Below are positions 22,505 to 51,972 of a stretch of DNA of 64,000 bases, piece after piece. Position 1 is the first letter of the stretch; every line of letters begins with the position of its first letter. The DNA lies in IMG/VR virus record IMGVR_UViG_3300030329_003334, positions 1 to 64,000 of that record; one strand, given 5' to 3'. The translations under genes and the position numbers were made by a program. The notes beneath the pieces are model-generated. The model ran no database searches. It had not been told where the DNA came from and saw nothing but the letters and a program-made list of their open reading frames with translations. This DNA comes from a virus.

Positions 22505-25500
22505 ATGTCTAAAAAACAGCTAAATTATTCAGATCTAGCTAATAAAGCTATTAATAAGATTAATCCTGTTACTAATTTACCTACGGGAACTAGTATTACT
22601 AATAAGACTAGTAATATAATAGATCCATCTCCAGTAAAGACTACTTTAGATTATGCAGGTTTAAGAAATAAATCTAAAACTAGATCTTCTAGTTTATTAA
22701 AACCTATTAAAGCGCCTGGAATTGATTTAAAAGATTATAAATTAGTTCCTGAAGTAAGACTACATCAAGGTCAAGAAACTATTGATAGAATACGTGCTAA
22801 TAATCAACGATGGTATAAACAGTTAGGTAATTTTGTTGGACAAGCTCTTCTTGGAGAAGTAGTTGGAGGAGCTGTTATGGGATTCGGTGCTCTTGCAGAA
22901 CTTCCTAGTTTTATTATAGATTCAGCTCAAGGTAAAAGTGCAGATTTTGATAATGTTTTAATGAGTCTTGGTAATGATCTTAATGAGTGGACTAAAGAGA
23001 AAATGCCTATATATCAAGTTGCTCCTAATAAATCTTGGCAGATGGATGATTTTGGTTGGTGGATGGGTAATGGAGTTTCTATAGCATCTACTTTATCTTT
23101 AATGATTCCAGGTATGGCTGTAGTTAGAGGAGTAGGATGGTTAGGTAAAGCAATAAAAGTAGCTGATAAAATAGGAGATACTACTAAGTATTTTAGTAAA
23201 CTTGCAATTGGGGCTGGAACTATGAGGCATGGTGAGAATATGCGTGAGAGTTTTCAAGTAGCAAACGATGCTAGAAAATTAGCTTTAGATCAATTTAATA
23301 AGCCAGGAAATTATGAAGATTTTATAAATTCTGAGCATGGAAAAGATTTTATTAATTTTACTGGAGCTGATCCTGATGATCCTAATTCTAAAAAGCTAGC
23401 AGCTGATTATATTGCAGCTAAGGCAGGTTGGAGATCTTATAGAGTTAATTCTATTAATATTGTATTTGATGCATTACAAATAGCTCCTATGTTTAGAGGA
23501 TTTAAAGTAGGAACTAGAAATACTTTTGGAACTGCTAGTAAAGTAGCTAAGGCCCAAAGAACTGCATTAGGTAAACCAGATCCAGGAAGATTATCTAGAG
23601 CTTGGTCTTGGTCTAAGAGTACGTTAAATCCAGTTGTTTCTGCAACAGGTAGGCAATTAACAGAGGGTATTGAAGAAGGTATTAACTTTATTGGAGGTGA
23701 AGAAGGTACCTATAAAGCTGAAAAGATTTTAGGATTAGAAAATTCTAAATTTAGTTCTAGATTTGGTGAGTATATAAAAGATGGTCATTTATGGGAATCT
23801 GCATTTTGGGGAGTACTTGGAGGTATAGCTTTTGAAGGAGGTATTGGATTAACTCAAAGATGGACAGGTTCTAATAAGAATGGTCCTCATAGTGTTCCTG
23901 GAAAGATAGCAGAGATACAACAAAGAAAAGCATTTATTACACAAGCTACTAATAAACTTAGAGCTATACAAAATGCTGATCCTAGTTATACAGATATAAC
24001 AGGTGAATATAATTTTCAAAATATTACAGAAGAACAACGACAAGATCTTATAGCTGAAGTTAAAAGAGATATGGCATATAATTTAGGATTAAATGCTGCA
24101 GTAACAGGTAATATAGATTTACTATTAGAACAATTAGAGGATACTAAATTTCAAGAAAGTTTGATAGAATCTGGAGTTGTTGAAAAAGAAGGAATTGATC
24201 AGTTTATAGATGATATTAAAGAAGATGTATTAGAAGCTGAAGATGTTTATAAGAAACATGTGTCTAGATTTATTATGTCTTCTGCAACTGGCGCTGCTAA
24301 AAATTTACTTATAAATAAAAGTGTAGATTTAGATTTACAAAAAAGTAAAATAAATAAGACTAAACAAAAACTAGAAGAAAGAAATACAGAACTTAAACTT
24401 AAAGATACTACATATACTAAGTCTGAAGGAAATATGGACTTAGCTGTTAGAAAAGCAGCATTACAATTATCTAAAGCACAAATGATGATTGAAATGGCTA
24501 GAGCAGATGGGTTAAAGTTTAAATCTGAAGAGGCTAAAACAGAGGCTATTAATAGATATAAAAAGATTATAGAAAATATAGATAGTAAATTAAATGAAAT
24601 TGATTCTCAGGTTAAAGAATCTGGAGAAAAATTACCATCTGTTCAGGGTGTAGATGAACGTATTATAGATAATCAAGCAGCTATAGAAGGATATGATATT
24701 GCTGAAGATGTTATATCAGGTGATATAGCTAGTTTAAAAACTAAAAAAGAAGCAGAAAGAGCAGAAAAAGAAATAAAAGAACAAGCAGAAAGATCAAAAG
24801 AACTACAAGTTAAATTAGCTGAAGAAGCTATTAAGGATAGTTCTTTAGGACTTACTGATAATTCTTCTGCTGTAGAAATTAGAGAAGCTATTGAGAAATT
24901 AAAGGAAACTGAAAAAGGATTTAGAGATAAAGGAATGGAAGAGCCTGCTGATATTCTGTCTAAAAAAATTAAAGAATTAGAAGATAGAATAGGGTCAGGA
25001 GAAAAGAAAAATGAAGTAAAACGTTCTAAGAAAGAGACTAAAGGTGATCAAGCTGATCCTCCTAATCCTAATGAAACTGAAGCAGAAAAACTAGAAAGAT
25101 TAGAAAGACAAGGATTATTACCTAATCAAACTGATAAGGATATTGATGATATGAATCCTACTGTTGAAGATAGTATTACTGAAGATAATACAGAACAACA
25201 AACACAAGACGAAACTGTAGAAGTAATCTCAGAAACTGAAAATAATCCTATTGAATTTCCAGATCCTATATCTATCGGAGAAACTGAGATATTTACTTTT
25301 ATAGGAAGTTTAATTTATAATAGAGATCTTTCTACTAAAGGAGTTGTTCAAGTAAGTGATGCTATAGTTAAAGCATTAAAAGCTATTATGGATCTTAAAG
25401 TAGGCGATAAACTACAAGTAATAGCAGTTAATAAAAATGATATTGAATTACGTGATAGTAAAGGTAATGTTATAGGCTACCTTAATTCAGTTAGAGGTAA

Positions 25501-28500
25501 AGAAGCTCTTCTTAAAAAAGCTAAAAACGCATTAAAAACAGCAGAAAATAAAGAGGAAAAAGAATATCATGCAAGGAGAGTTAAAAGTATAGAAACAGAG
25601 ATTGCAACTATTAAGAGTATACGTGAATCTCTTGATCAGCTATGGACTGATGGTGTTATTAAGGAAGGAGATAGAGTAGGTGAAATGGAAGTTACTGATA
25701 AATTGAGAGGCCAACTTATAACCAATGAAGTAGAAGGAGCAAAACAATTTAGAGGTATAAATCAAGCTTTTGGTAAGAAGATAAGTCTTTATATGAATCA
25801 AAAAGAGACTGTACGCCAATTAGAACCTATATATGATGCTGATGGAAATGCAGTTCCTGTATTTGTTGGTTCTGGAATATCAGCTCCTATGTTTGGACCT
25901 GGTGTTATTTATACATTAGTTCAAGATGATACAGGCGGTCCACCAATGGCAGTACCTCTTTCTACGGCTAATGTAGATGCAAGACATGCTGAGTTTGTAT
26001 GGGAGGCTTTACTTGAATTAGCTAATCGTATGAATAAAAGAGCTGATGGTAAGTATATAAATGATCTTAGAAATAAAGAAATAAAAGATCTTAAAGATCT
26101 TATAAATGAGATAACTCTTACTGGTTCTACAATGGGTATTAAAATCCATAATGAAAAGATTGAGATACCTATGCCTGATGGTAATGTATTACAATTATAT
26201 TTTAGAGAAAAAGGACAAGGTAATATGAAAGGCGCTCCTGTAAAAGGAGGATTTAATTTAAGGATTCTTACAGCTGATGAAGCTTCTGGTAAAGTAGATA
26301 AAGTTAAAGGAAATTTTGTTTATGGTGCTAAAAGTATGGCAGATATTAAAACATTAACTTTAGCAGCTCTTACTAATTTAAAACGTCAAGTAAATAAAAA
26401 GAATTTTACTAAGAAAGGTAAATATAAATCTCCATTAACTGCTAATCTTAAATCTCCAATACTTGAAAATACTGGACAAGAGTATGATAGTTATTATGAT
26501 TACCTAACTCAAGAACAAACTGATGATGGGTTACCTGTATTAAGAACCGATGTAGGAGCTGTTATTAATGAAAAGAATAATGTTATTAGCCATTTTGTAG
26601 ACACAAGAGTTAGAATGTCTAATTTTAAATTTTTAGCAGGTATATCACCTTCAGGTCCTGGTAGAGGAAAAGTAGATGAGGAACTTCCAGGAGGTCCTGG
26701 AGCTCAAGAGATTCAACGAAAAGCGATGGAGAGATTAGCTGAAGAAGAAGAAGCTCCACCAGATGTAACGGCAAAAGATGTATCTGAAGGATTGAAAGAA
26801 AGTTTAGGAGAACAGTTTTTAAATAAAGAGGATATTAAAGGTATGAATATAGATCCTTTTGATGATGCTTTTGATAAATTATCTCGGAGAGATTTAGACG
26901 AATTAAATGATAATCTTGATCGCGCAGTAACAGAGAGAGATATTACAGAAGGATATGATAAAGAAGATGTAGATAGAGCCGAGAAGTGGTTTAAAAAGAA
27001 TCTTCCTCACGTACCTTTTAGTGTAGTTGATGGATTAATTAAAGAAGGTCCTACTGCATTTGGGAGATTTCATAATGCTGCTGTATCTTTATCTAATATA
27101 GCTAAAGAGGGTACTGCATATCATGAAGCATTCCATGCTGTATTTCATATGTATTTAAATCCTGTACAAAGACAGGAGTTATTAAAAGAAGCTAAAGAAA
27201 GATATGGTATAGAATATATGGATCTTAGTACTAATTCAGCTTTAAGAAATAAAGCTTTATTCGCTTTACTTAGAGAGAAATTACCTGGGTATGATGCGAA
27301 TACTCTTAAGAAACTTATAACTAAGAGAGTTATACCTCCTGATGTATATACAACTCCAGGAAATATAGATGAAAATACTGGTATTTTCTTGTTTATGAAT
27401 AAAAAAGAATATGCTGCCAAAAAGAAAGATACAGAAGATGCAATAGCTAGGATGGATCAAAATGCAATACAGCTTGATAAACTCTATTCGGATTTATTAT
27501 TAGGAATACCATTGGTTGATAGAACTAAGGAGGCTATTATGAAAATTGCAGAAAGACTATCAGATTATAGTAGCGAATGGAATTATTTTATTAATATGGC
27601 CAAGGAAATAACTGGATCTGAGGGATTATTGGAATTTATGGCTGAGGCGAAAGATCAATTAAATAAAGAGCTAAATAATATATATGATCGTAGTGCTAAC
27701 TTAGAATCTGAATTAAATCTTTTAAATGAATTCGAACAGCTTGTAAAAAATAAAGAACTTGATGAAATTAGTATAGGAATAAAAGCTTCAGAGATTGTAT
27801 TAGAGGAAAAACTTGCTGATGAGTTTATGACTTATATGCAAACTGGTGTAGAAGACACAAGTTGGACTGGAAGGATTAAGCAGTTCTTTAAAGATTTATT
27901 ACAGTATTTTAAAAATTTATTAGGTATAGGATCTGCTATAGATAGATTATTCTATGATATAAAGACAGCTAAATTTACATATAAGCCTGATGAAGCTGCT
28001 GTAAATCATGCTAAAAAAGTAGTAATGAATAGAGATGTGGAAGGAGAGCGAGTACCTGATAATAATATTCCTTCAGAAGGGTTTACAGATGCTGAAGAGA
28101 GAGCTTTACTAAATAAATTACCTGCTTTATATTATATGGTTAAGCAAAAAATGAATGCTAAAGCTGTTGCAGAAGCAAATCGAACTGGCGAAAGAGTTAA
28201 GCAGCCTGCTTTAGATGATATTAAAGCAGGAGTTATATCGTTATTATCTGCTAGATCTAAAATAGTAGATAATGTTACACATCAAAGAAACTTACTTAGA
28301 ACAATACAAGCTTTAAATAAAAGCGATTCTGATTTATGGAATAAAACTATAGGTATTGTTGCAAGAGATTATCAAGTTACTTCTAATTCTTTAGTTCAAG
28401 GATTAGAAGATGCTATATTAAACGATGAGTTAGAAGGAATGAATTCTGATGATCTTGCAGAAATTAAAAGAAATTGGGATGATGGAACTACAATGGGTAC

Positions 28501-31500
28501 AGATCAGAAAACAAGAGCAACAGGTGAAGTTAGATCTGTTGTTAGAATGACTCAATCAATTGAAGATATAGTTATTAATAAAGATGGAACTGTACAATAT
28601 ATAACTGAAAAAGATGATTTCTTAGGTTTAACTAATTTTTTAGATTTTGATAAAGTATATCCTTATTTAGCTGCTAACTTAGCTGGTATACAGAATGGAG
28701 AACAATTATTATTAAGACTAGAAGAACTCTCTAAATTTGATGTAAGTTTATTAAAACTTAAAAATCAAATAGATCCAGGATACTTAACTCCTAGAGAGCA
28801 AGAATTAAGTACCACAGAAAAACAAGTAATAAAAGAAAAGAAGAAAATATTATTAGCTAAATTTACTGTTACGTTTGCTAAACAAACTCCTACTATGGAT
28901 GTAGATTTAGTATCTGAACGTGGAAAAACAACAGTACATAAACCTTCTAGAGCAAATAATAATGATACTAAAGTTATATTAACAACTAAATGGATTTCTA
29001 ATATATTAACTAAGCATAGAAATAAAGAAGTAGATGTTAAGGCTTTAGCTAATGATATAAAGAAAATAGCTAGTCAGATATATATCGCTAATCAATTAGA
29101 CGATGCAGGACTCAAAAAATTATCTCAAGATATATCTAAAACTTTTGAAAAATTAGGTATAAATCTTATGGAGGGTACAACAAATAAAATGTCAGAAGCT
29201 ATTTTTAACGCTCTTTCTAATCCTGTATTTTTAATAAGGCATAAAACAGTTGGAGGTATTTTACAAAATGTTTTCTTATCGCCATTAGCTTGGGCAGCAG
29301 ATAATTTAGCAAAAAAAGATGTTGTATTTGATCAAGTAGGATCTCTAAGAGCTCTTGCTCAAGCTGTTAGATTTTTTAAATATGATATTATACAAAATAC
29401 TAGTTTAAATGTAGAGAATAAAACTCAATATACTGTTAGTGATTCTAATTTTATGTCTGATTTTTTTGCTAGATGGAAATCTGATAATCCTAGTGAGCGA
29501 TTTGCTTTAGCAGATGATATAGATATATTATTGGATATGCCTAGTATGAAGCATTCTAATTGGCTTAAACTAATGGTTCGGTATAATGAAGATGGTTCTA
29601 TTATGAGAATGGATGATGGAACTCCTATACTAAATGATGAGTTTTTTGAATTATTTGATTATTCTTATGAAGATGGATTAAAAAATACTGATAATAATAA
29701 AGGTATTAAGTATACTAATATGGAAGATGCGGATTGGTATTACTTAAATTTAGCCAAATTTATTAATGGTTTAGGAAGAACGGCAGCAGAAAATTGGTCT
29801 AAATTTCCTCAGCCTATTCCTTCAGATTCGAGTAATATTATATATATAACTGCTCCTAGATATAAAGGACAATTTATATACGAAAAAAAGAAAGCAGAAG
29901 AAGAAGGACAAGAAGATACAGAAGTATCTACTAATATATTAAGAACAGATTCTGGCTTGTCTAAAGCTTTGTTAAATTTAGTTAAACAAGAAGTACATGC
30001 TATGCATCAAGCTCAGTTATTATTATTTGAATTTGATTCTGAAGGTAATATAAAACTAGATGAGTTTGGTAAACCTATTATTAAAGAAGATTTAGATTAT
30101 AGAATTTTACAAAAAGATGTACATTATAAACAAGGTCCTAATGGAGAGAAGTTGATATTAGACGAAGATGGTTATCCGTTAGGAGAAATATTTAAGTTTA
30201 ATAGTTTTGTAGGTTTGAATAATATTATAGGAATACGTTCTCATGTAAGTCCTAGAACAGGTAAGGGTTTTATTAAGAATTTAGGTATAGGTAATGCTGA
30301 GATTAAAGCTATTAATGGAGTTATACAAAATACTTTAACTGATGAAATGTTACAACTTCAAGCTAATCCTGTATTTATGGCTCAAGTTTCTAAATTATGG
30401 GCATTAGCTAAAACTACTTATGCTACTAAAGAACATTTTATTATAGATTTTTTAGGTAATCAAAAAATATCTTTAGTAGAATCTCAAAATTGGTTTGCTG
30501 GTAATATAGCTGAGTTTAAGAATAAACAAGATAGTACTAAGAGAGCAAAACAAACTAATTCTCCTGGTATGAAACAAGCGGGTATATTTACTAATCCTAT
30601 GTTTGGTGTTATTGTTATTAAAGATTTAGTATTACCTTCTCAAGATATAGAAACAATAGCTACTACTCTTAAAGACGATATACAAAAAAGAAAGAATTAT
30701 AAAGGAACTGATGCAGAATTTAATATGGATAATATTATAGCAGAAAATCCTCAAAGTAGTCTTGAACGAGAAGTATATAGAATTGCTCGTCATTATTTAG
30801 CTATTAATACAGGTGATGCTCAGGGTTATGTAAGCTGGGAAAGGTATAAAAGACAGCTTAAAGATAATGCTATGTGGAATGATGATATAGCATTGATTGT
30901 TAAAAAAATAGATAATGATGAGTATATTACTCCTGAAGAGTTAAATGCTATTATGCAGCCTTTAAAAGGATTTTATTATAATAGATCTATTGATAAGAAT
31001 ACAAACAGATTAAGATCTAGACAACTTAAATATTCTACGGTACCTTTGATTCCTCAATTAATTAAAGGCACAGATCTAGAGATTTTAGCAGATAAAATGG
31101 ATGCATATGGTATAGACGAAACTGTATTTGAATCTGCATCTAAAGTAGGTACTTTAAGTGTATTTAAACTTCATGACGAAAATGGTCGTATACTTCCTGA
31201 TATATTTGAAGAGTTAGTTATGGCAGATGAATTCCATGTAGAATTATTAGATAATAATAGATGGATGAGGCAGCAAGATGTTCCTACTAAATTAGAACAA
31301 GTTACTGGAACATTAGGTACTCAGATAAAAGATTTGATTTTTACTAATTTATCTAATGATTCTATATATAAAGTAGCATTTAGTGAAATTTCTTTTACAG
31401 GTAAAGAGTTATTACAAAAGAATCTTGCTATAGCAGCAGCTAATATCGAAGAAGATGCTATGAATCTTTTAATGGAGATTGGGGCTGAAATAGTAGAAGA

Positions 31501-34500
31501 TTCAACAGCAGTTGGAGGTATACGAGTTATATTTAAAAATAATAAGAAAGTAAGAGCTTTATTAATAAGAGAGTTAACTAAGAGAGGACTTAATGATAAT
31601 TATATAAAAGCTATTTTACCTAAACCAGGTACAGATGAATTTAATTTACCTTTATTTTTCTCAGGAATGGCATCTAAATTTGAATCAGTATTACTTTCTT
31701 TATTTACAAATAATGTAACTAATCAAAAGTTTCCAGGATTTACTTCTGTTCAATTTTCTGGAGCATTCTTTAGAACTGGTAAGAAAGCAAGCGAATCTGT
31801 TCAAGCTCTGAATGAAGAGAGAATGCAAGGAGTTGAATATATTGATGGACATGATGCAAGCCAAAGATTAAGAACTACTAGAGATTCTGAATCTGGAATT
31901 ATAACAGCTGAAGTTATTGTATCTCGTCCTAATATGTTTAATCGACCAGATGGTACTCCTATTCCTATTAATGAAATAGATCCTGAAGTATTAGAAATGA
32001 TTGGGTATCGTATTCCTACTGAAGCTAAGCATTCTATGGTAGTATTTAAAGTAGTAGGATTTACTCCTGCAGCTACAGGTGATATAATTATTTTACCTGA
32101 TGATATTATAGCTCAAACTGGATCCGATTTTGATATTGATAAGATGCAAGTTATGGTATATACTTCTGAAAATGGTAAGAAGATTCACTATGATGATGAT
32201 AAAAGTCCTTCGGAAAATAGTAGAGATCAGAGAAATAATGGTTTATTAGATACGTTTATGTCTGTATTAAAAAATAGATATCATTTATCAGAGATGTTAG
32301 ATACAGGTAATTTTGATGATCTTAAAGAGATCAGAGAGGAGATGGATAATATTGATAATATAAAGGAAGAAACATTTGATATATCTTCATTTTCAGGACA
32401 AGATGAAATGCGTAAAAGAAATATATCTGGTAGAATACTTAAAGGTATATCTGCTACATTTAATAAGTTTGGAGCTATTGCTCAAAATACTAAGATGGTT
32501 TTATCTGAACCTTTTATTTGGAAATATAGATTAACAGAAATAGATGAAGCATCTGGTATAGAAATTAAGAGAAATGTAGAAGATTTTAAAGCTAGATATG
32601 GTGAAGAAAATGTTAGAGTAGAAGGTGAGTTTATTATTGTTACACATGAATTAATAGGTTGGACTAGAGACAATACACATTTAAATGCAAATGGTGATTT
32701 AGTTCTTAAACATTCAGCTCAAGGTATTACTGGTGCTGTTGATATTAGTAGTGATCCTACATTTAGTTCTTTTAATGTAAAAGCTTTTACTTATCCTATG
32801 GTAGCTGCAGCTACTTTAGTAGGTATTCCTTGGAAAGATATAGCTTGGTTAACTAAACAACAGATTGTAAAAGAAGTACAAGATAAATACTATGAAGCTA
32901 GAGGTATTCTTGGGGATAATACTCCTGTTCATCAAATAATTAGAGATATTAGAAATTCGTTTTTAAACGTATCTACTAATCCTACTTATCAAGGTAAATT
33001 ATTTGCTTTATTATCTGATGAAAAACAAAAACAAATATTAACTTTATTAAATAGAGCTAAGAAAGGTGATATATCATGGTCAGATTACTTTAATAAAAGA
33101 GCAGAAATAATAGGTATTTCTGAAGAAGTTGTTCCTTTAAGTAAAAACGAATTGAAAGATTTATACTTAACAAGTAAAAATTTCGATAACTTAACTAAAG
33201 AAGAAAAAATAGAGTATTATAAAAAACAATTACAAGTATTAAATAATTTCGAATATTTTAGAAAAATAGGTAGTGCTGTTAGTTCTACAGTATCAATTAC
33301 TAAAGCTGATACTATAGGAGCAGGACCACAAATGACTGTTACTTCTAATTTTGAACGGCAATTAGATTCTCATTTCGATAATGATGGTTCAATACAGGTT
33401 GAATTGGAAAATGGTGAATTAATAGATGCTGCTTTAGCTTTGCATCCTTCTTATTTTGGTAGAGATGCAGAATCTGTATATCCTACTTTAGATACTGTAT
33501 ATAGATTCTCTAATCAATTAAGTATAAAATCTGTAGGACAACATTTTATAGAACAACATCCTAGTTTTAGAATGATACTAGATGGAGTTATGGAAACTTT
33601 AAGAGGAGATAGATTCTTTAAATATGATGATAGAATAGAAGCGATAGTTAGAAATTGGGTAGTATCTTATCTTTTAAAAGATGCAGATATATTTAGTGAT
33701 TTAAGTGATTCTGATAAAAGAGATATACTTGGAATTACTTCTAAAGAAGATAGAAATATAACATCTTTAGCTGAAGATATAGCTAGTATTCAAAAGAGAT
33801 TTCCTAGTTTAGCACAATCAGATGGTCATATATTAGCTTTTTTAAATCCTAAATTATCTGAAAAAGATAAAAAGAATAATAATGGTATAGAATTTATAGA
33901 AGTTAATGAAATACCTAAAGATACTGTTATACAGAATCATATAAGTAGATCTCTTTTAAGAATGTATAGAGGCACTGCATTAGATGCTGATGGTAGATCT
34001 TTACCAGAAGATGTAAGAGAAGAATTACAAAGAATAGCTAAAAAGATTCTTCAATATGAATTTATAACTAGAGGATTAAACTTTGGACGTAATTCTTTAA
34101 CTGAAGTTATTGATACTAATATTAAATTGGACGAGCAATTAGGAGCGCATCTTGAAAGAAAATTACAGAGTTTTAATATGGGTAATGATCCTATGAAAAC
34201 AGGTGAAGAAAATTTAAATGAATTAATTCATAAAATTATACGAGCTAATTGGTTTAGACATGATATGGTTCCTAGAGTTAAAAGAAAAACTACTAAAGTA
34301 TTACGTTGGGATAAGAAGACTAGACAATATCAAGGTAAAGTAGAAACTGTTAGAGGTACAGGTAATTGGGTTCCTAATAGAGATGGTATTATTGTAACTG
34401 AAGGCAGAAAAAAATTAGATAAAGAACCTCCTAATGTTAGAAATTCACAGTATGTATATGTTCCTATATATAAGAAAATTACTCGTGGTAAAAATAAAGG

Positions 34501-36091
34501 TAATTGGGTATTAGTTTCTGATGTTTTATATATGCAATATGGAGAAGATCCTAGTACTGGAAAATTATATTGGATACCTGTGTCAAGGACTAGTCTTCCT
34601 GGTAAATTAATGGAGTTTGGTACCAAATCTATTTTAGATACTAACGATCCATATAGAGAAGCTTTTCCTTTTTCTAACGAACAAGAGGCTATGGATTATA
34701 TAGATGGTGTATTAAATGGTGATATAGATAGACAACAAGTATTAGATGAAATAGAAGATACTCAACAAGCATCTAAACAAGGATATGGTATAACTGTTAG
34801 TGAGGCGCAAAAAAGAGCAATAGAAATGATGGAAGATGGTGATCCTGATAAAATGAAAAAACTTATGGCTGCGTTTGAAAAAATGAGTCAAGGTGGCAAG
34901 GATAGGACTGATAAAATAATGAAGGCAATTGAAAAAGCAGATGAGAAAGATACTAATGCTCCTAAAGTTAAACAGATTAAGGCTGATCCTTCTTTTAAAA
35001 TACACTCTAAATCTGGATATGCAGCTAGAACTGCGGAAAATACTAAGTCACATGCTACTATAGATTTTTCTTTTGATCCTAATGTAGGATCAGGAGGAGT
35101 AAGAGGTACTACAAAAATTAATGTAGATAGGTTTAAACGTGAGTATATAGGTATTAGATTAGAATCAGATGGTACTATTCAAATAACTGATGAATTAGTT
35201 AAAGATATAGTTAATCAATTAAATAATGCTAATAAAGGCAAAGGAGCTGTAACTGTTAATATAGCGGGTCATGGTATAGCTAAAATGGCTAAACAAGGAG
35301 CTACTCAAAAACAATTAGATGATTCAGTGTATAAATTAGTTAAACAAATATTAGCTCATCCTGATCTTAAGAATAAAAATATTAAGATAAATACAGGAGG
35401 ACAGACAGGATTTGATGAAGCTGGTACTAAAGCAGCTATGAGATTAGGTATAGAGAATACTATTTTAGCTCCTAGAGGTTGGATGTTTAGAGATAAGGAA
35501 AATAATGATATTTCAGATGAACATGAGTTTAAAGCTAGATTTGGTATAGAAGCACTTGCTTCTACAGTTAAAGAAAAGAAAAAAACACGTTCTATGCAAC
35601 AAGAAGTAGGATTAACTAAAGTAGATTCTTTTCATAAATTTATTACAGAAGAAGGTTTTGTAAAAGTACCTCTTAAAAATTCTCAAAAAATGAAATATGA
35701 TGTAAAAGGTTGGGAAGGTATAGAGTTTTTTATAGAAACTGAAGGAAATAAAACTAGTGGTATTGTAACAGTATCTGAAGCTATAACAGGAGCTAGGGCA
35801 GTATCTGTTGAATATGGAAAAGATAAAAAGTCAAAGACTGCAAAAGAAGCAATATCTGAAGCTCGTAATCAAATGAAGGAAACAGCTAAAAAAGTTTCTT
35901 TTGATAAATTTAAAGCTACAATAGAAAAACATATAAAGGATTATGGATTAAATCCAGCTTATAGAAAACAAGTAAAATCTGATCCAAGTAAAACAGAAAA
36001 TCCTACTATGGATAAGATGTTAAAATTATTCGAACAACAACAGGTTGAGAAGAAGAAAAATGATGATAATTCAGAAACTAAATGTGATTAA
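22505..36091 (+). CDS. Giant virion RNA polymerase polyprotein (membrane-like N-terminus, zincin, two-barrel RNAP, SLOG-like domain)
   Basis: GYRIPTE and TGSDFDIDK (DFDID at 32126-32140); TGDAQGY, QLKYS, ESASKVG; HEAFH at 27122; GGQTGFD near 35395. Confidence 0.92.
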   Translation: MSKKQLNYSDLANKAINKINPVTNLPTGTSITNKTSNIIDPSPVKTTLDYAGLRNKSKTRSSSLLKPIKAPGIDLKDYKLVPEVRLHQGQETIDRIRANNQRWYKQLGNFVGQALLGEVVGGAVMGFGALAELPSFIIDSAQGKSADFDNVLMSLGNDLNEWTKEKMPIYQVAPNKSWQMDDFGWWMGNGVSIASTLSLMIPGMAVVRGVGWLGKAIKVADKIGDTTKYFSKLAIGAGTMRHGENMRESFQVANDARKLALDQFNKPGNYEDFINSEHGKDFINFTGADPDDPNSKKLAADYIAAKAGWRSYRVNSINIVFDALQIAPMFRGFKVGTRNTFGTASKVAKAQRTALGKPDPGRLSRAWSWSKSTLNPVVSATGRQLTEGIEEGINFIGGEEGTYKAEKILGLENSKFSSRFGEYIKDGHLWESAFWGVLGGIAFEGGIGLTQRWTGSNKNGPHSVPGKIAEIQQRKAFITQATNKLRAIQNADPSYTDITGEYNFQNITEEQRQDLIAEVKRDMAYNLGLNAAVTGNIDLLLEQLEDTKFQESLIESGVVEKEGIDQFIDDIKEDVLEAEDVYKKHVSRFIMSSATGAAKNLLINKSVDLDLQKSKINKTKQKLEERNTELKLKDTTYTKSEGNMDLAVRKAALQLSKAQMMIEMARADGLKFKSEEAKTEAINRYKKIIENIDSKLNEIDSQVKESGEKLPSVQGVDERIIDNQAAIEGYDIAEDVISGDIASLKTKKEAERAEKEIKEQAERSKELQVKLAEEAIKDSSLGLTDNSSAVEIREAIEKLKETEKGFRDKGMEEPADILSKKIKELEDRIGSGEKKNEVKRSKKETKGDQADPPNPNETEAEKLERLERQGLLPNQTDKDIDDMNPTVEDSITEDNTEQQTQDETVEVISETENNPIEFPDPISIGETEIFTFIGSLIYNRDLSTKGVVQVSDAIVKALKAIMDLKVGDKLQVIAVNKNDIELRDSKGNVIGYLNSVRGKEALLKKAKNALKTAENKEEKEYHARRVKSIETEIATIKSIRESLDQLWTDGVIKEGDRVGEMEVTDKLRGQLITNEVEGAKQFRGINQAFGKKISLYMNQKETVRQLEPIYDADGNAVPVFVGSGISAPMFGPGVIYTLVQDDTGGPPMAVPLSTANVDARHAEFVWEALLELANRMNKRADGKYINDLRNKEIKDLKDLINEITLTGSTMGIKIHNEKIEIPMPDGNVLQLYFREKGQGNMKGAPVKGGFNLRILTADEASGKVDKVKGNFVYGAKSMADIKTLTLAALTNLKRQVNKKNFTKKGKYKSPLTANLKSPILENTGQEYDSYYDYLTQEQTDDGLPVLRTDVGAVINEKNNVISHFVDTRVRMSNFKFLAGISPSGPGRGKVDEELPGGPGAQEIQRKAMERLAEEEEAPPDVTAKDVSEGLKESLGEQFLNKEDIKGMNIDPFDDAFDKLSRRDLDELNDNLDRAVTERDITEGYDKEDVDRAEKWFKKNLPHVPFSVVDGLIKEGPTAFGRFHNAAVSLSNIAKEGTAYHEAFHAVFHMYLNPVQRQELLKEAKERYGIEYMDLSTNSALRNKALFALLREKLPGYDANTLKKLITKRVIPPDVYTTPGNIDENTGIFLFMNKKEYAAKKKDTEDAIARMDQNAIQLDKLYSDLLLGIPLVDRTKEAIMKIAERLSDYSSEWNYFINMAKEITGSEGLLEFMAEAKDQLNKELNNIYDRSANLESELNLLNEFEQLVKNKELDEISIGIKASEIVLEEKLADEFMTYMQTGVEDTSWTGRIKQFFKDLLQYFKNLLGIGSAIDRLFYDIKTAKFTYKPDEAAVNHAKKVVMNRDVEGERVPDNNIPSEGFTDAEERALLNKLPALYYMVKQKMNAKAVAEANRTGERVKQPALDDIKAGVISLLSARSKIVDNVTHQRNLLRTIQALNKSDSDLWNKTIGIVARDYQVTSNSLVQGLEDAILNDELEGMNSDDLAEIKRNWDDGTTMGTDQKTRATGEVRSVVRMTQSIEDIVINKDGTVQYITEKDDFLGLTNFLDFDKVYPYLAANLAGIQNGEQLLLRLEELSKFDVSLLKLKNQIDPGYLTPREQELSTTEKQVIKEKKKILLAKFTVTFAKQTPTMDVDLVSERGKTTVHKPSRANNNDTKVILTTKWISNILTKHRNKEVDVKALANDIKKIASQIYIANQLDDAGLKKLSQDISKTFEKLGINLMEGTTNKMSEAIFNALSNPVFLIRHKTVGGILQNVFLSPLAWAADNLAKKDVVFDQVGSLRALAQAVRFFKYDIIQNTSLNVENKTQYTVSDSNFMSDFFARWKSDNPSERFALADDIDILLDMPSMKHSNWLKLMVRYNEDGSIMRMDDGTPILNDEFFELFDYSYEDGLKNTDNNKGIKYTNMEDADWYYLNLAKFINGLGRTAAENWSKFPQPIPSDSSNIIYITAPRYKGQFIYEKKKAEEEGQEDTEVSTNILRTDSGLSKALLNLVKQEVHAMHQAQLLLFEFDSEGNIKLDEFGKPIIKEDLDYRILQKDVHYKQGPNGEKLILDEDGYPLGEIFKFNSFVGLNNIIGIRSHVSPRTGKGFIKNLGIGNAEIKAINGVIQNTLTDEMLQLQANPVFMAQVSKLWALAKTTYATKEHFIIDFLGNQKISLVESQNWFAGNIAEFKNKQDSTKRAKQTNSPGMKQAGIFTNPMFGVIVIKDLVLPSQDIETIATTLKDDIQKRKNYKGTDAEFNMDNIIAENPQSSLEREVYRIARHYLAINTGDAQGYVSWERYKRQLKDNAMWNDDIALIVKKIDNDEYITPEELNAIMQPLKGFYYNRSIDKNTNRLRSRQLKYSTVPLIPQLIKGTDLEILADKMDAYGIDETVFESASKVGTLSVFKLHDENGRILPDIFEELVMADEFHVELLDNNRWMRQQDVPTKLEQVTGTLGTQIKDLIFTNLSNDSIYKVAFSEISFTGKELLQKNLAIAAANIEEDAMNLLMEIGAEIVEDSTAVGGIRVIFKNNKKVRALLIRELTKRGLNDNYIKAILPKPGTDEFNLPLFFSGMASKFESVLLSLFTNNVTNQKFPGFTSVQFSGAFFRTGKKASESVQALNEERMQGVEYIDGHDASQRLRTTRDSESGIITAEVIVSRPNMFNRPDGTPIPINEIDPEVLEMIGYRIPTEAKHSMVVFKVVGFTPAATGDIIILPDDIIAQTGSDFDIDKMQVMVYTSENGKKIHYDDDKSPSENSRDQRNNGLLDTFMSVLKNRYHLSEMLDTGNFDDLKEIREEMDNIDNIKEETFDISSFSGQDEMRKRNISGRILKGISATFNKFGAIAQNTKMVLSEPFIWKYRLTEIDEASGIEIKRNVEDFKARYGEENVRVEGEFIIVTHELIGWTRDNTHLNANGDLVLKHSAQGITGAVDISSDPTFSSFNVKAFTYPMVAAATLVGIPWKDIAWLTKQQIVKEVQDKYYEARGILGDNTPVHQIIRDIRNSFLNVSTNPTYQGKLFALLSDEKQKQILTLLNRAKKGDISWSDYFNKRAEIIGISEEVVPLSKNELKDLYLTSKNFDNLTKEEKIEYYKKQLQVLNNFEYFRKIGSAVSSTVSITKADTIGAGPQMTVTSNFERQLDSHFDNDGSIQVELENGELIDAALALHPSYFGRDAESVYPTLDTVYRFSNQLSIKSVGQHFIEQHPSFRMILDGVMETLRGDRFFKYDDRIEAIVRNWVVSYLLKDADIFSDLSDSDKRDILGITSKEDRNITSLAEDIASIQKRFPSLAQSDGHILAFLNPKLSEKDKKNNNGIEFIEVNEIPKDTVIQNHISRSLLRMYRGTALDADGRSLPEDVREELQRIAKKILQYEFITRGLNFGRNSLTEVIDTNIKLDEQLGAHLERKLQSFNMGNDPMKTGEENLNELIHKIIRANWFRHDMVPRVKRKTTKVLRWDKKTRQYQGKVETVRGTGNWVPNRDGIIVTEGRKKLDKEPPNVRNSQYVYVPIYKKITRGKNKGNWVLVSDVLYMQYGEDPSTGKLYWIPVSRTSLPGKLMEFGTKSILDTNDPYREAFPFSNEQEAMDYIDGVLNGDIDRQQVLDEIEDTQQASKQGYGITVSEAQKRAIEMMEDGDPDKMKKLMAAFEKMSQGGKDRTDKIMKAIEKADEKDTNAPKVKQIKADPSFKIHSKSGYAARTAENTKSHATIDFSFDPNVGSGGVRGTTKINVDRFKREYIGIRLESDGTIQITDELVKDIVNQLNNANKGKGAVTVNIAGHGIAKMAKQGATQKQLDDSVYKLVKQILAHPDLKNKNIKINTGGQTGFDEAGTKAAMRLGIENTILAPRGWMFRDKENNDISDEHEFKARFGIEALASTVKEKKKTRSMQQEVGLTKVDSFHKFITEEGFVKVPLKNSQKMKYDVKGWEGIEFFIETEGNKTSGIVTVSEAITGARAVSVEYGKDKKSKTAKEAISEARNQMKETAKKVSFDKFKATIEKHIKDYGLNPAYRKQVKSDPSKTENPTMDKMLKLFEQQQVEKKKNDDNSETKCD

Positions 36092-40230: not shown

Positions 40231-40250
40231 TTATTCCTTTGAGCAAGGAT

Positions 40251-40294
40251 AAAAAAAAGAAGTAGAGAGGGATACAATTAAGTATCCCTCTTTT
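40251..40294. terminator. Bidirectional intrinsic terminator between convergent modules
   Basis: AGAGGGATAC-AATTAA-GTATCCCTCT hairpin, T run to the right and A8 to the left. Confidence 0.85.
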
Positions 40295-40330
40295 AGTAAA
40301 ATCGAATAAAACTAAAAACTACTTCAATAA

Positions 40331-49955: not shown

Positions 49956-49966
49956 AATTTTAATTT

Positions 49967-50080
49967 TAAAGGGCGAGGTCGGCCAAGTATTTATGGTGGC
50001 AGTCTCCCTATCATATAAACCACATTTGACATTTTTAAAGCTAGCTCGTTAGACTCTAAAATACTCAACCTGTTTGGCCC
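49967..50080 (-). ncRNA. Structured intergenic element (three-way junction + U tract)
   Basis: GGGC/GCCC and GGUUGAGUAUUU/AAAUACUUGGCC with G-U pairs on the - strand. Confidence 0.6.
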
Positions 50081-51259
50081 TTATGTTAATATTTCATTTA
50101 ATGTTTCTATCCATTCACAGTTATAATCATTTTGAGTTCTCTTTCGTACCCATTTAACTTCCTGAGTACCACGTACATAGAGATTTATATACAAAGCTTG
50201 TTTACCTTCTATCATTCTTAATACTCTACCTCTTCTTTGTATATTATCTAATGCTTTAGAACTACCTGCAGCACATATTCCAAGAGAACATTCTGGTACA
50301 TTTAAACCAGCATTTAATGCTTTAACAGAACTTATTAATCTTACTTTAGTTCTTCCATCACCGAATTCTTTGAGAGCTCGTTTCTTGTCTTTAAGTTTCA
50401 TTTTAGAATGAAAAGTTATACACTCTTCTCCTAAAATATCTTGTAGATTCTCCGCAAAGTTAATACTTTGACTAAAAACAAGACCCTTTCTGTTAGGAAA
50501 TTTATTAACAATTTTCTTGATTAATTCTACTTTATTTACAGCATTATAGCAAATATTTTTCCTTTTTTGCATTGCCATATAAAATATATTTGCCCATTTA
50601 GCTTCTTCTTTATCTTTAGAATTCTTTAATTTTGTAGCATTCTCAAAAGCTACAAATCTACCTCCTAATTCATTAGTTGCTTTATTAAATAATGTATCAA
50701 ATCTCTTATATTCTTTAACTTCTTCTTCGGTAAAACTTACTCCTAAATTATATACTTTATATGGTGATACTAATTCTAGATCTAATGCATCTAAAGTATC
50801 TGTTTTTTTAATTGTAGGCGCAAATCCTTTTAGATATTCTTTATATTCATCATTTTCTGGTTCTGTAGCTGTTAAACAATATATATTATCAAAACTATTA
50901 TTTTCGTATAAGTTTCTATATTCATAAGATAAAGTAGTATGTACTTCATCTACTATTAATATAGAACAGGTATAATTTTCCCATTTGTATACAGTTTGTA
51001 TACATTGTATATCTATTCGATCTTTATATTTAGATAATTTCCATTTTTTTAATTCATTTGGCCATTCATTATCTCTTAAATTTTCAGTAGGAACAACTAT
51101 TAAAGCCTTATTATATATATCTTTAGATAAAATATGATCAATTGCCATTAATCCCATTTTAGTTTTACCTATACCTGTAGCTGCTATAGAAGTTCCTTTA
51201 CAATTATTATTTATCCACGCATCTATATGTTCTTTTTGTTCTTTATCTTTATTATTCAT
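50081..51259 (-). CDS. Superfamily 2 helicase
   Basis: TGIGKT, VDEVH, TAT, QRRGRVLR. Confidence 0.9.
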   Translation of the reverse strand: MNNKDKEQKEHIDAWINNNCKGTSIAATGIGKTKMGLMAIDHILSKDIYNKALIVVPTENLRDNEWPNELKKWKLSKYKDRIDIQCIQTVYKWENYTCSILIVDEVHTTLSYEYRNLYENNSFDNIYCLTATEPENDEYKEYLKGFAPTIKKTDTLDALDLELVSPYKVYNLGVSFTEEEVKEYKRFDTLFNKATNELGGRFVAFENATKLKNSKDKEEAKWANIFYMAMQKRKNICYNAVNKVELIKKIVNKFPNRKGLVFSQSINFAENLQDILGEECITFHSKMKLKDKKRALKEFGDGRTKVRLISSVKALNAGLNVPECSLGICAAGSSKALDNIQRRGRVLRMIEGKQALYINLYVRGTQEVKWVRKRTQNDYNCEWIETLNEILT

Positions 51260-51507
51260 ATTAAAATATTTATAATTTTTCTAAATCTTGCCATTACTTG
51301 TGTAAAAGTTTTGGAAGATTTATTATAATACATTGGACTTAGAGGTACAAACTGATGCTTTTCCATTGTTTCATTTACTCCCTTTTGTAATCTTTTTTTA
51401 TTAGGACCTTCAGCTAAAATAACTTCTTCTATATCAGGCATAAACCTATCGTGAGGCCCTCTGTCATTACCAAAAAGCTGTTTTTTCTTTTTTGTTTGTT
51501 TTTTCAT
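51256..51507 (-). CDS. Hypothetical basic protein
   Basis: 83 aa; 4-nt overlap with helicase. Confidence 0.6.
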   Translation of the reverse strand: MKKQTKKKKQLFGNDRGPHDRFMPDIEEVILAEGPNKKRLQKGVNETMEKHQFVPLSPMYYNKSSKTFTQVMARFRKIINILI

Positions 51508-51524
51508 GTTGTGTGTAATTTAAT

Positions 51525-51597
51525 AAAAGAGCGGGTAAGCGCTCTTTTGGTACTACGACTGATAAAACAAGTATTAGTTCTAGCTTACCCTAGAACT
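51525..51597 (-). ncRNA. Two-hairpin kissing-loop element overlapping a terminator-like hairpin
   Basis: Perfect 8-bp and 9-bp stems with complementary loops GGUAAG / CUUACC. Confidence 0.7.
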
Positions 51598-51723
51598 GTA
51601 AAAAGGAAAGAAAGAGAAATTGCATAACTGTATGTATATTACTAACGCAATATTTCATATACTATCTAGTTTTCTCTCTTTCTAACCTATTAATTAAAGG
51701 CAGAAATCATGACATAACGACCT

Positions 51724-51972
51724 TTAATCATTTTTATCTTCTTTAAATACTACAGTTTTAAATCTATCATCTTCTGGATTATTATCTGTATATTTATTTT
51801 TCCATTTATCTACCTCTGCAAAATATAGTTTTCTGAATTTATCTAATTCTTCTCGCGTATCTTTAATTTCTATTGATACTACAGAAAACGTTAACAACGA
51901 TCCAAGTATTGCTCCTCCTGCTATTGATATAGCTATTACCAGTAAAGGTACAAATATATTTGTATATTCCAT
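51724..51972 (-). CDS. Small membrane-anchored protein
   Basis: N-terminal hydrophobic helix plus coiled coil. Confidence 0.7.
   Translation of the reverse strand: MEYTNIFVPLLVIAISIAGGAILGSLLTFSVVSIEIKDTREELDKFRKLYFAEVDKWKNKYTDNNPEDDRFKTVVFKEDKND

What the first reader, a model, noticed from the sequence alone, without database searches (positions are those of the whole stretch)
51525..51597. Perfect kissing-loop pair built onto a terminator hairpin
Seen on the - strand: AGUUCUAG-[GGUAAG]-CUAGAACU, a 27-nt linker, then AAAAGAGCG-[CUUACC]-CGCUCUUUU. Both stems are perfect. The two 6-nt loops are exact reverse complements, extendable to 8 bp (GGGUAAGC/GCUUACCC). The second hairpin ends in a U run about 18 nt before the next ATG, at the head of the helicase/DnaB gene run. 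Inference: a loop-loop pseudoknot acting as an attenuator switch, nuclease-resistant knot, or RNA dimerisation module.
Basis: partly seen in the sequence, partly recalled or inferred. Interest (0 to 1): 0.75.

Follow-up and report, generated by a model that had tools for sequence, protein, structure and literature searches.

The report
Conserved kissing-hairpin pair before phage helicase genes
Two neighbouring RNA hairpins with matching tips, the second like a weak transcription stop signal, lie in a non-coding gap of a marine crAss-like phage and recur in its one known close relative; the hairpins are selected, but tip-to-tip pairing is only plausible.

Summary
On the - strand, H1 (51597-51576) and H2 (51548-51525) are perfect hairpins of 8 and 9 bp. 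Their 6-nt loops, GGUAAG and CUUACC, are exact complements. They are 27 nt apart, and H2 ends 17 nt before the ATG of an 83-aa ORF that overlaps a SNF2-type helicase gene.

They are the last two of four hairpins filling a 216-nt gap in the replication-gene block of a 94-kb crAss-like phage. In the model phage phi14:2, this block is the early class, transcribed by the virion RNA polymerase.

Only one informative relative could be fetched (L130, helicase 88% identical).
- It keeps both stems, each through one compensatory change and one G.U change.
- It keeps 11 of 12 loop bases. The single loop change turns a G-C kissing pair into G.U.
- The linker is scrambled.
- All five one-sided stem or loop changes give G.U on the - strand RNA only.

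So the hairpins are selected RNA structures. The loop-loop contact is plausible but rests on n=2 and has no double covariation. Its function (clamping a weak terminator or 3' end) is inferred. No Rfam family matches.

This scan's earlier AI notes describe the same hairpin-kisses-terminator design in other phages. I did not verify those notes.

The parts
51691..51730 (-). Ha: 8-11-bp stem with a 20-nt loop. It starts at the stop codon of the upstream 82-aa ORF.
   Evidence: Fold. The loop and 5' arm are 100% identical in L130 (27-nt invariant block). The 3' arm differs at two positions, both giving G.U on this strand. The sense strand folds at -6.3 kcal/mol in L130, the antisense at 0.0. The loop contains the complement of AGAAAUCAUG, which occurs at four early-gene positions.
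51604..51688 (-). H0: long hairpin followed by a U-rich tail.
   Evidence: Fold. In L130 the 3-bp base and the UU/UU internal loop are kept, but the upper stem is replaced by an unrelated G5/C5 stem.
51576..51597 (-). H1: perfect 8-bp stem, 6-nt loop GGUAAG (51589-51584).
   Evidence: -9.4 kcal/mol. In L130: one G-C to A-U compensatory change, one C-G to U.G change, and the loop is 6/6 identical.
51549..51575 (-). 27-nt U-rich single-stranded linker.
   Evidence: Unpaired or weakly paired. Only about 12 of 27-30 aligned positions are shared with L130, with indels.
51525..51548 (-). H2: perfect 9-bp stem (A4/U4 base plus a 5-bp GC core), 6-nt loop CUUACC (51539-51534). Terminator-like.
   Evidence: -9.9 kcal/mol overall, core only -5.6. 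In L130: one C-G to U-A compensatory change, one G-C to G.U change, and a loop C to U change that keeps a G.U pair with the H1 loop. It has the same layout as the strong convergent terminator at about 40259-40295 (A-tract, stem, 6-nt loop, U-tract).
51508..51524 (-). 17-nt A/U- and CA-rich leader without a Shine-Dalgarno sequence.
   Evidence: In L130 it is expanded to 28 nt by CA repeats.
51256..51507 (-). 83-aa ORF of unknown function. Its end overlaps the helicase start by 4 nt.
   Evidence: Conserved homologues at 68-79% identity. No Pfam or PHROG match.

Best explanation
H1 and H2 are the 3' half of a four-hairpin, non-coding intercistronic RNA element (Ha-H0-H1-H2). It sits in the - strand replication-gene transcript of a crAss-like phage. 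H2, with its A-tract and U-tract, is a weak, leaky intrinsic-terminator or 3'-end hairpin placed 17 nt before the next gene.

After H2 folds, the pre-formed H1 loop docks onto the H2 loop through a 6-bp intramolecular kissing helix in which every loop base is paired, as in TAR-TAR*. The 27-nt linker is long enough for both stems and the kiss to coexist. The kiss therefore clamps and stabilises the weak H2 hairpin rather than competing with it. This would tune how much RNA ends, or survives, at this point, and so the ratio of upstream (DNA polymerase) to downstream (helicase/primase) message.

Shown: the two hairpins, their RNA-level conservation, and retained loop complementarity in one relative. 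Inferred: that the kiss forms, and what it does.
For: - Anatomy.
- The whole gap is more structured than shuffles in both phages: z = -4.3 and -3.6.
- In L130, 23 of 23 proposed pairs are still pairs. H1 and H2 each have one compensatory and one wobble change, and the kiss helix has one G-C to G.U change.
- Loops are 11/12 identical and stems 28/34, while the linker is about 40-45% identical. Four-fold degenerate sites in the adjacent helicase gene are 72% identical.
- All five one-sided changes in Ha, H1, H2 and the kiss are C to U or A to G opposite G or U. They keep pairing only in the - strand RNA. Antisense folds in L130 are much weaker.
- There is no conserved ORF in the gap.
- The kiss duplex scores -5.7 kcal/mol even with a bimolecular initiation penalty.
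- A solved precedent exists for 6-nt loops with no unpaired loop bases: HIV-2 TAR-TAR*, PDB 1KIS, as described in PMC6795135.
- H2 has the same layout as the phage's strong convergent terminator, but only a 5-bp GC core.
- The genes downstream must be reached by read-through. There is no room for a promoter after H2, and no host-type TAnnTTTG box anywhere in the gap.
- Context: the 4528-aa ORF carries the crAss virion-RNAP region with a DFDID motif. In phi14:2 the whole replication module is early and transcribed by that enzyme.
Against: - There is only one informative homologue, and no double (compensatory) change in the loop-loop helix.
- At 72% neutral identity, 11/12 conserved loop bases has p of about 0.1.
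- The pair's rarity is about 0.005 per genome under the strict criterion but 0.16-0.7 under looser ones, and the finding was picked from a very large scan.
- The consensus terminator scan does not call H2. Its U-run is base-paired to the A-run and is followed by only AUUAAAU.
- It is unknown whether the two-barrel virion RNAP responds to hairpin terminators.
- No other gap in this genome, in phi14:2, or in the 60%-identity relatives shows the design, so it is not a general design of this phage group.
- A kiss that forms only after H2 has folded may come too late to influence termination itself.
Confidence: 0.4

Rival explanations
1. The two hairpins are independent (a stabilising or processing hairpin and a weak terminator). 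Their loops are complementary by coincidence, and the loops look conserved only because the two phages are close or because each loop is constrained for its own reason.
For: - The looser chance estimates are not small: 0.16 per genome and 18% of shuffles, and 0.7 expected in the early block with relaxed rules.
- There is a large look-elsewhere factor.
- At 72% four-fold identity, 11/12 conserved loop bases has p of about 0.1.
- The only loop change is a transition, which has roughly a 1 in 4 to 1 in 2 chance of being compatible.
- The design is not repeated elsewhere in this genome.
Against: - Exact whole-loop complementarity with three G/C pairs has a probability of about 4e-5 per hairpin pair at this base composition (my calculation frequencies).
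- The loops are at least as conserved as the stems, while the linker between them is scrambled.
- Both partners are displayed in apical loops of perfect stems only 27 nt apart.
Confidence: 0.33
2. The kiss acts as a transcription gate or attenuator. The H1 loop captures the nascent H2 loop and changes the efficiency of termination at H2. This could raise it by nucleating the weak hairpin, or lower it as in the guanidine-IV riboswitch. A phage or host factor, or the change of polymerase between early and later infection, might modulate it.
For: - H2 is terminator-like and lies 17 nt before the ATG.
- There is a published case in which a kissing loop between an upstream hairpin and the terminator hairpin decides read-through: guanidine-IV (PMC11611296).
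- This scan's earlier AI notes report the same design as promoter-proximal leaders in other phages. Those notes are unverified leads.
Against: - No alternative, mutually exclusive fold was found.
- The 24-27-nt linker removes the steric competition that drives guanidine-IV.
- No Rfam riboswitch model matches.
- No promoter was found upstream, so the element looks intercistronic rather than a leader.
Confidence: 0.15
3. The loops work in trans. One possibility is head-to-tail multimerisation of transcripts, as with phi29 pRNA. Another is pairing of one loop with a different phage or host RNA, with the other loop acting as an internal mask.
For: - Non-self-complementary loop pairs permit both intra- and intermolecular pairing.
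- In the same gap, the conserved Ha loop is complementary to a 10-nt motif found at four early-gene positions. That hints the element may present antisense loops.
Against: - A flexible 27-nt tether makes intramolecular pairing kinetically favoured.
- The only other GGGTAAGC in the genome lies inside a coding region at 73105.
- 6-8-nt matches in trans are uninformative, and loop-to-transcript matches in this block are no longer than in reversed-loop controls.
- There is no Rfam pRNA match.
Confidence: 0.07
4. The element is a DNA-level feature: palindromic protein-binding sites, a cruciform, a replication origin, or a hairpin-type promoter for the virion RNAP, by analogy with N4.
For: - The element lies within the replication module.
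- Early promoters of crAss-like phages have no known sequence motif, and the phi14:2 virion RNAP was assayed on denatured phage DNA and M13 DNA.
Against: - All five one-sided substitutions give G.U on the - strand, which are A.C mismatches on the template strand and break the duplex palindromes.
- Antisense-strand folds collapse in L130.
- The motif is not repeated at other gene starts.
Confidence: 0.05

Closest known systems
[quoted passage not shown]
   Same: Two hairpins with 6-nt loops that are fully complementary, all six loop bases paired with no unpaired loop nucleotides, and stacking between the three helices.
   Different: TAR-TAR* is an engineered intermolecular pair. Here the two hairpins are natural, sit on one RNA, and are tethered by 27 nt. 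No structure or probing data exist for them.
Guanidine-IV (mepA) riboswitch (PMC11611296, PMC7736828)
   Same: An upstream hairpin loop kisses the loop of a hairpin that is part of an intrinsic terminator just before a gene. The kiss decides the terminator's fate.
   Different: In guanidine-IV the kiss competes with completion of the terminator stem and needs a ligand. Here the long linker lets both coexist, and the loops are plain Watson-Crick complements without a conserved ligand pocket. There is no Rfam match, and the context is phage replication genes, not guanidine exporters.
Intercistronic hairpins of phage early transcripts (T7 RNase III sites; leaky terminators between lambda early genes) - from my own knowledge
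   Same: Structured elements between genes of a long early or replication transcript, positioned shortly before the next start codon. They are thought to set message ends and stability.
   Different: Those elements have no loop-loop tertiary contact, and neither processing nor termination has been shown here.
phi29 pRNA interlocking loops (from my own knowledge; Rfam model did not match)
   Same: A phage RNA carrying two different, mutually complementary loops.
   Different: The pRNA loops pair between molecules (4 bp) to build a packaging ring, and the RNA lies at the genome end. Here intramolecular pairing is favoured and the context is intercistronic.
Abundant intergenic non-coding RNAs of crAss-like phage phi14:2 (g004-g006 junctions; bioRxiv 10.1101/2020.03.07.982082)
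   Same: Non-coding intergenic transcripts of unknown function within the early, virion-RNAP-transcribed block of a marine crAss-like phage.
   Different: They lie at a different position in the block. My scan of the phi14:2 early block found no comparable hairpin pair with complementary loops.
'Kissing-loop terminator leader RNAs' reported by this scan's own follow-up agents in other phages (AI notes; unpublished and not verified by me)
   Same: A 5' hairpin loop complementary to the loop of a terminator-like hairpin that ends 13-20 nt before an ATG. The phages are AT-rich, several of them Bacteroidota phages. No Rfam family matches.
   Different: Those elements are described as promoter-proximal leaders, often in several copies per genome with different 'addresses', and with covariation. 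Here there is a single copy, no detectable promoter upstream, an intercistronic position, and only one relative.

Membership tests
Intrinsic (Rho-independent) terminator (H2) | Stable G+C-rich stem-loop | tested here: inconclusive
   The stem is 9 bp, but only a 5-bp GC core. Energies are -9.9 kcal/mol overall and -5.6 for the core, and -2.5 for the L130 core. This is weaker than the phage's own convergent terminator.
Intrinsic (Rho-independent) terminator (H2) | U-tract directly 3' of the stem | tested here: inconclusive
   The U4 run is paired to A4 and is followed by AUUAAAU. L130 has U7. The consensus scan did not list H2, although it listed H1.
Intrinsic (Rho-independent) terminator (H2) | Transcript 3' ends map at the U-tract | not testable with these tools
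   No transcriptome data for this uncultured phage.
Kissing-loop complex (TAR-TAR* type) | Two stable hairpins whose apical loops are Watson-Crick complementary over at least 5-6 nt | tested here: met
Kissing-loop complex (TAR-TAR* type) | Loop-loop pairs maintained by covariation in homologues | tested here: inconclusive
   With n=2, five pairs are invariant and one changes from G-C to G.U. There is no double change.
Kissing-loop complex (TAR-TAR* type) | Mg2+-dependent protection of the loops, rescued by compensatory mutants | not testable with these tools
   This is a bench experiment.
Guanidine-IV riboswitch (mepA motif) | Match to the curated covariance model | tested here: not met
   No such match at E<=10 in the window or in L130.
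Guanidine-IV riboswitch (mepA motif) | The kiss is sterically incompatible with the complete terminator stem | tested here: not met
   A 27-nt linker (24-26 nt in L130) separates the complete stems. No competing fold was found. The mechanism is as described in PMC11611296.
phi29-type pRNA | Rfam model match and a position next to packaging genes or the genome end | tested here: not met
   No match. The element lies between the DNA polymerase and helicase genes.
Scan-internal 'kissing-loop terminator leader' class (AI notes) | A 5' hairpin loop complementary to the loop of a terminator-like hairpin that ends shortly before an ATG | tested here: met
   (17 nt before the ATG). L130 has 28 nt.
Scan-internal 'kissing-loop terminator leader' class (AI notes) | A promoter directly upstream (promoter-proximal leader) | tested here: inconclusive
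   There is no TAnnTTTG-type box in the gap, although such boxes precede + strand late genes. Virion-RNAP promoters have no known motif.
Crassvirales-like phage (context) | Giant virion protein with the two-barrel RNAP DFDxD motif, and opposed replication and structural blocks | tested here: met
   DFDID at residue 3208 of the 4528-aa ORF. It is 27% identical to crAssphage 'RNAP catalytic subunit' genes. PolA is about 30% identical to crAss-like phages. Gene layout.

The most novel reading that the evidence does not exclude
The H1-H2 pair is one instance of a widespread, still uncatalogued class of phage RNA gates, in which an upstream hairpin loop kisses the loop of a weak terminator just before a gene. 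Here the gate would be used inside the early operon of a crAss-like phage to meter read-through by the virion-packaged (or host) RNA polymerase from the DNA polymerase genes into the helicase/primase genes. It would work together with the neighbouring Ha loop, which is antisense to the start regions of the earliest genes.
Probability: 0.25. Interest if true: 0.7.

Novelty: new variant of a known kind. Interest (0 to 1): 0.45.

Why it matters
How crAss-like phages control the long early transcripts made by their unusual virion RNA polymerase is unknown. Their abundant intergenic RNAs have no assigned function. A conserved intercistronic RNA with a loop-loop clamp on a weak terminator would be a concrete, mutable handle on that question. 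If the design really recurs across phages, as this scan's earlier notes suggest, it would define a new cis-regulatory RNA class that works without a ligand pocket. If the loop match is a coincidence, what remains is an ordinary pair of conserved intergenic hairpins.

Tried and rejected
**Searches for more homologues (one useful locus found)**
- blastn against phage records: no match.
- Viral contigs with the 83-aa and 82-aa ORFs, an alignment of the 83-aa ORF homologues, the invariant 18-mer, and a loop-plus-arm pattern: all empty.
- A loop-only pattern gave 119 hits, none with the hairpins, so these are chance matches.
- Genome contigs, searched twice: empty.
- The single metagenome scan gave L130. 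L131 is cut 133 nt before the helicase gene.
The contigs of P0002, P0003 and P0005-P0010 could therefore not be read.

**Other checks**
- Covariance model R1 finds the element once in the genome and once in L130. It finds nothing in the 60%-identity relatives.
- Rfam: nothing. tRNA/tmRNA: none.
- Rejected: a coding reading of the gap.
- Rejected: a + strand RNA or DNA hairpin.
- Rejected: a nested 8-bp long-range helix.
- Rejected: the invariant 27-nt box as a repeated promoter motif.
- Rejected: the third GGGTAAGC at 73105 as a target, because it lies in coding sequence.
- Rejected: a general excess of loop-antisense matches in the early block, which is no different from controls.
- phi14:2's early block shows no comparable high-quality kissing pair.

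Full report
**Observation**

- H1 has 8-bp arms at 51597-51590 and 51583-51576 around the loop GGUAAG.
- A 27-nt linker follows.
- H2 has 9-bp arms at 51548-51540 and 51533-51525 around the loop CUUACC.
- After 17 more nt comes the ATG (51507) of an 83-aa ORF.

The repeat finder reports the two perfect stems and the 8-nt inverted repeat that spans the loops. The MFE and centroid folds contain both hairpins. The claimed 8-bp extension borrows the closing G-C pair of each stem, so the usable kiss is 6 bp. A nested fold that uses the 8-mer pairing costs about 9 kcal/mol more than the two hairpins.

**Context**

The record is a 94,021-bp virus genome with direct terminal repeats. Several results identify it as a distant crAss-like phage:
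- Its 4528-aa ORF contains a DFDID motif.
- The surrounding 600 residues match the 'RNAP catalytic subunit' genes of crAssphage and of Bacteroides, Flavobacterium and Cellulophaga crAss-like phages at about 27% identity.
- PolA is about 30% identical to crAss-like phages.

Start codons lack Shine-Dalgarno sequences, and TAnnTTTG(C) boxes precede + strand late genes. Both fit a Bacteroidota host.

The element lies in the - strand block (about 40.3-62 kb). The local gene order is PolA, 81-aa ORF, 82-aa ORF, the 216-nt gap, 83-aa ORF, SNF2-type helicase, and further on a DnaB-like helicase. In the model crAss-like phage phi14:2, the whole replication module is the early class and is transcribed by the virion RNAP. 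Early transcripts there show no promoter motif, and two intergenic early RNAs are very abundant and of unknown function. Extending this to the present phage is an inference by analogy.

**The gap as a whole**

The gap 51508-51723 plus a few flanking bases folds into four hairpins: Ha, H0, H1 and H2. The fold energy is -57 kcal/mol, z = -4.3, and no shuffle does as well. No host-type promoter box lies in the gap, and there is no room for one after H2. The helicase genes must therefore be reached by read-through. Other gaps in the block also hold long stems followed by U-rich tails. The convergent junction at about 40.26 kb holds a strong bidirectional terminator with the same A-tract, stem, 6-nt loop, U-tract layout as H2, but a 10-bp G+C-rich stem. 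H2 thus looks like a deliberately weak version of this phage's terminator.

**Chance**

Using perfect stems of at least 6 bp and loops of 3-9 nt, the genome has 344 hairpins and 185 neighbouring pairs. Only this pair has 6-nt loop complementarity.
- Whole-loop complementarity between equal-length loops occurs in about 2-3e-5 of random loop pairs, or about 0.005 per genome.
- The looser criterion (any 6 contiguous complementary bases) is expected 0.16 times per genome and is reached in 18% of loop shuffles.
- With relaxed hairpin rules, the early block alone expects 0.7.

Given how many windows this scan reads, a coincidence cannot be excluded from one genome.

**Homologues**

Relatives with about 60% identical helicase (L004-L010, L132-L141) go from PolA through a 35-nt gap to an unrelated small ORF and then the helicase. 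They lack the whole region. One metagenome contig, L130 (helicase 88% identical), has it. A second, L131, is cut off too early. All other routes were empty or closed (see Tried and rejected).

**The window compared with L130**
- Stems: H1 keeps its stem through one G-C to A-U double change and one C-G to U.G change. H2 keeps its stem through one C-G to U-A double change and one G-C to G.U change.
- Loops: the H1 loop is identical. The H2 loop becomes CUUACU, which turns the terminal G-C of the kiss into G.U. All 23 proposed pairs remain pairs.
- Neutral yardsticks: the linker shares only about 12 of 27-30 positions and has indels. The upper stem of H0 is replaced by an unrelated G5/C5 stem. 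Four-fold sites in the adjacent helicase gene are 72% identical.
- Strand: Ha has an invariant 27-nt block, and its stem is kept by two changes that both give G.U. In total, five of five one-sided changes give G.U on the - strand RNA and would be A.C on the other strand. As a rough estimate, if about one random stem substitution in four is of that kind, p is about 0.001. In L130 the sense folds are all more stable than the antisense folds: Ha -6.3 vs 0.0, H1 -6.9 vs -1.6, H2 -6.8 vs -5.8 kcal/mol.
- Coding: no ORF is conserved across the gap.

Conclusion from the comparison: the hairpins are selected structures of the sense RNA. For the kiss itself the evidence is weaker. The loops are at least as conserved as the stems, and the one change is compatible. 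However, 11/12 conserved loop bases has p of about 0.1 against four-fold-site divergence (about 0.001 against linker divergence), and there is no double covariation.

**Mechanism**
- Energetics: H1 is -9.4 and H2 -9.9 kcal/mol. The GC core of H2 is only -5.6, and -2.5 in L130. The 6-bp loop duplex is -5.7 kcal/mol even with a bimolecular initiation penalty.
- Precedent: a complex in which both 6-nt loops pair completely is known from the solved HIV-2 TAR-TAR* structure (1KIS), which is bent and stabilised by stacking and Mg2+ (PMC6795135).
- Geometry (my estimate): a 27-nt tether easily spans a stack of 8 + 6 + 9 bp.
- Contrast with the known case: in the guanidine-IV riboswitch, a kiss between an upstream hairpin and the terminator hairpin prevents completion of the terminator and so gives read-through (PMC11611296). 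Here the two can coexist, and I found no competing fold.
- Reading I commit to, at 0.4 confidence: the kiss is a clamp that stabilises a weak, leaky terminator or 3'-end hairpin. It sets how much transcript ends or survives between the polymerase and helicase genes.
- Rivals: coincidence (0.33), a true termination gate (0.15), trans or intermolecular pairing (0.07), and a DNA-level feature (0.05).

**What is known, and novelty**

No Rfam family matches in either phage. A covariance model of the pair finds only the two copies. phi14:2's early block shows no comparable pair.

This scan's own earlier notes describe the same design in at least nine other phage genomes, several from Bacteroidota phages and two from marine phages. 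In that design a first hairpin loop is complementary to the loop of a terminator-like hairpin just before an ATG, and follow-up agents reported covariation. These are AI notes that I could not check. They gave me the guanidine-IV lead, which I followed up, and they raise the possibility that this is one member of a broader uncatalogued class. They differ from this case in being promoter-proximal leaders, often present in several copies.

I rate the finding a new variant of a known kind (a kissing-loop contact combined with a terminator-like hairpin). The hairpins are well supported. The kiss is plausible, and its function is inferred.

Noticed in passing
window 51691-51730 (-): Hairpin Ha has a 27-nt block (5' arm plus the 20-nt loop) that is 100% identical in L130, the most conserved non-coding stretch in the gap. 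Its loop contains the complement of AGAAAUCAUG. That motif occurs four times on the - strand (59850, 60107, 60740, 60888), apparently at early-ORF starts, and nowhere else. By length alone the match is no better than reversed-loop controls.
   Followed up: partly
window 51604-51688 (-); L130:571-625: Hairpin H0 keeps its 3-bp base and UU/UU internal loop in both phages. Its upper stem is purine/pyrimidine-rich and long in the window but G5/C5 with a different interior in L130. Either the stem covaries wholesale or the module was swapped.
   Followed up: partly
window 49956-50080 (-) vs L130:2159-2215 and L131:1301-1357: The 125-nt structured gap after the helicase gene is absent from the two 88%-identity relatives, which have an unstructured 57-nt gap. 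These intercistronic folds are therefore gained and lost quickly.
   Followed up: partly
window 22505-36091 (+): A 4528-aa ORF carries the crAss-type virion RNA polymerase region (DFDID at residue 3208). It is about twice the length of phi14:2 gp66, so it may be a fusion with neighbouring virion proteins.
   Followed up: partly
window 40231-40330: A strong bidirectional terminator (A8, 10-bp G+C-rich stem, 6-nt loop, U4) lies at the convergent junction of the structural and replication blocks. z = -4.85.
   Followed up: no
window 3358, 19509, 62110, 62384; genome 73003, 78384, 78455 (+): TAnnTTTG(C) boxes of the Bacteroidota type sit just upstream of + strand genes. The - strand replication block has almost none in its gaps. 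This fits host-RNAP late genes and an early block driven by the virion RNAP.
   Followed up: no
L130:719-746: The leader between H2 and the ATG is expanded by CA/CACA repeats (28 nt against 17 nt in the window).
   Followed up: no
L004-L010, L132-L141: In the clade with 60% identical helicase, PolA is followed after about 35 nt by an unrelated ORF of about 65 aa and then the helicase. The two small ORFs and the structured gap of the window are specific to the window's own close clade.
   Followed up: partly
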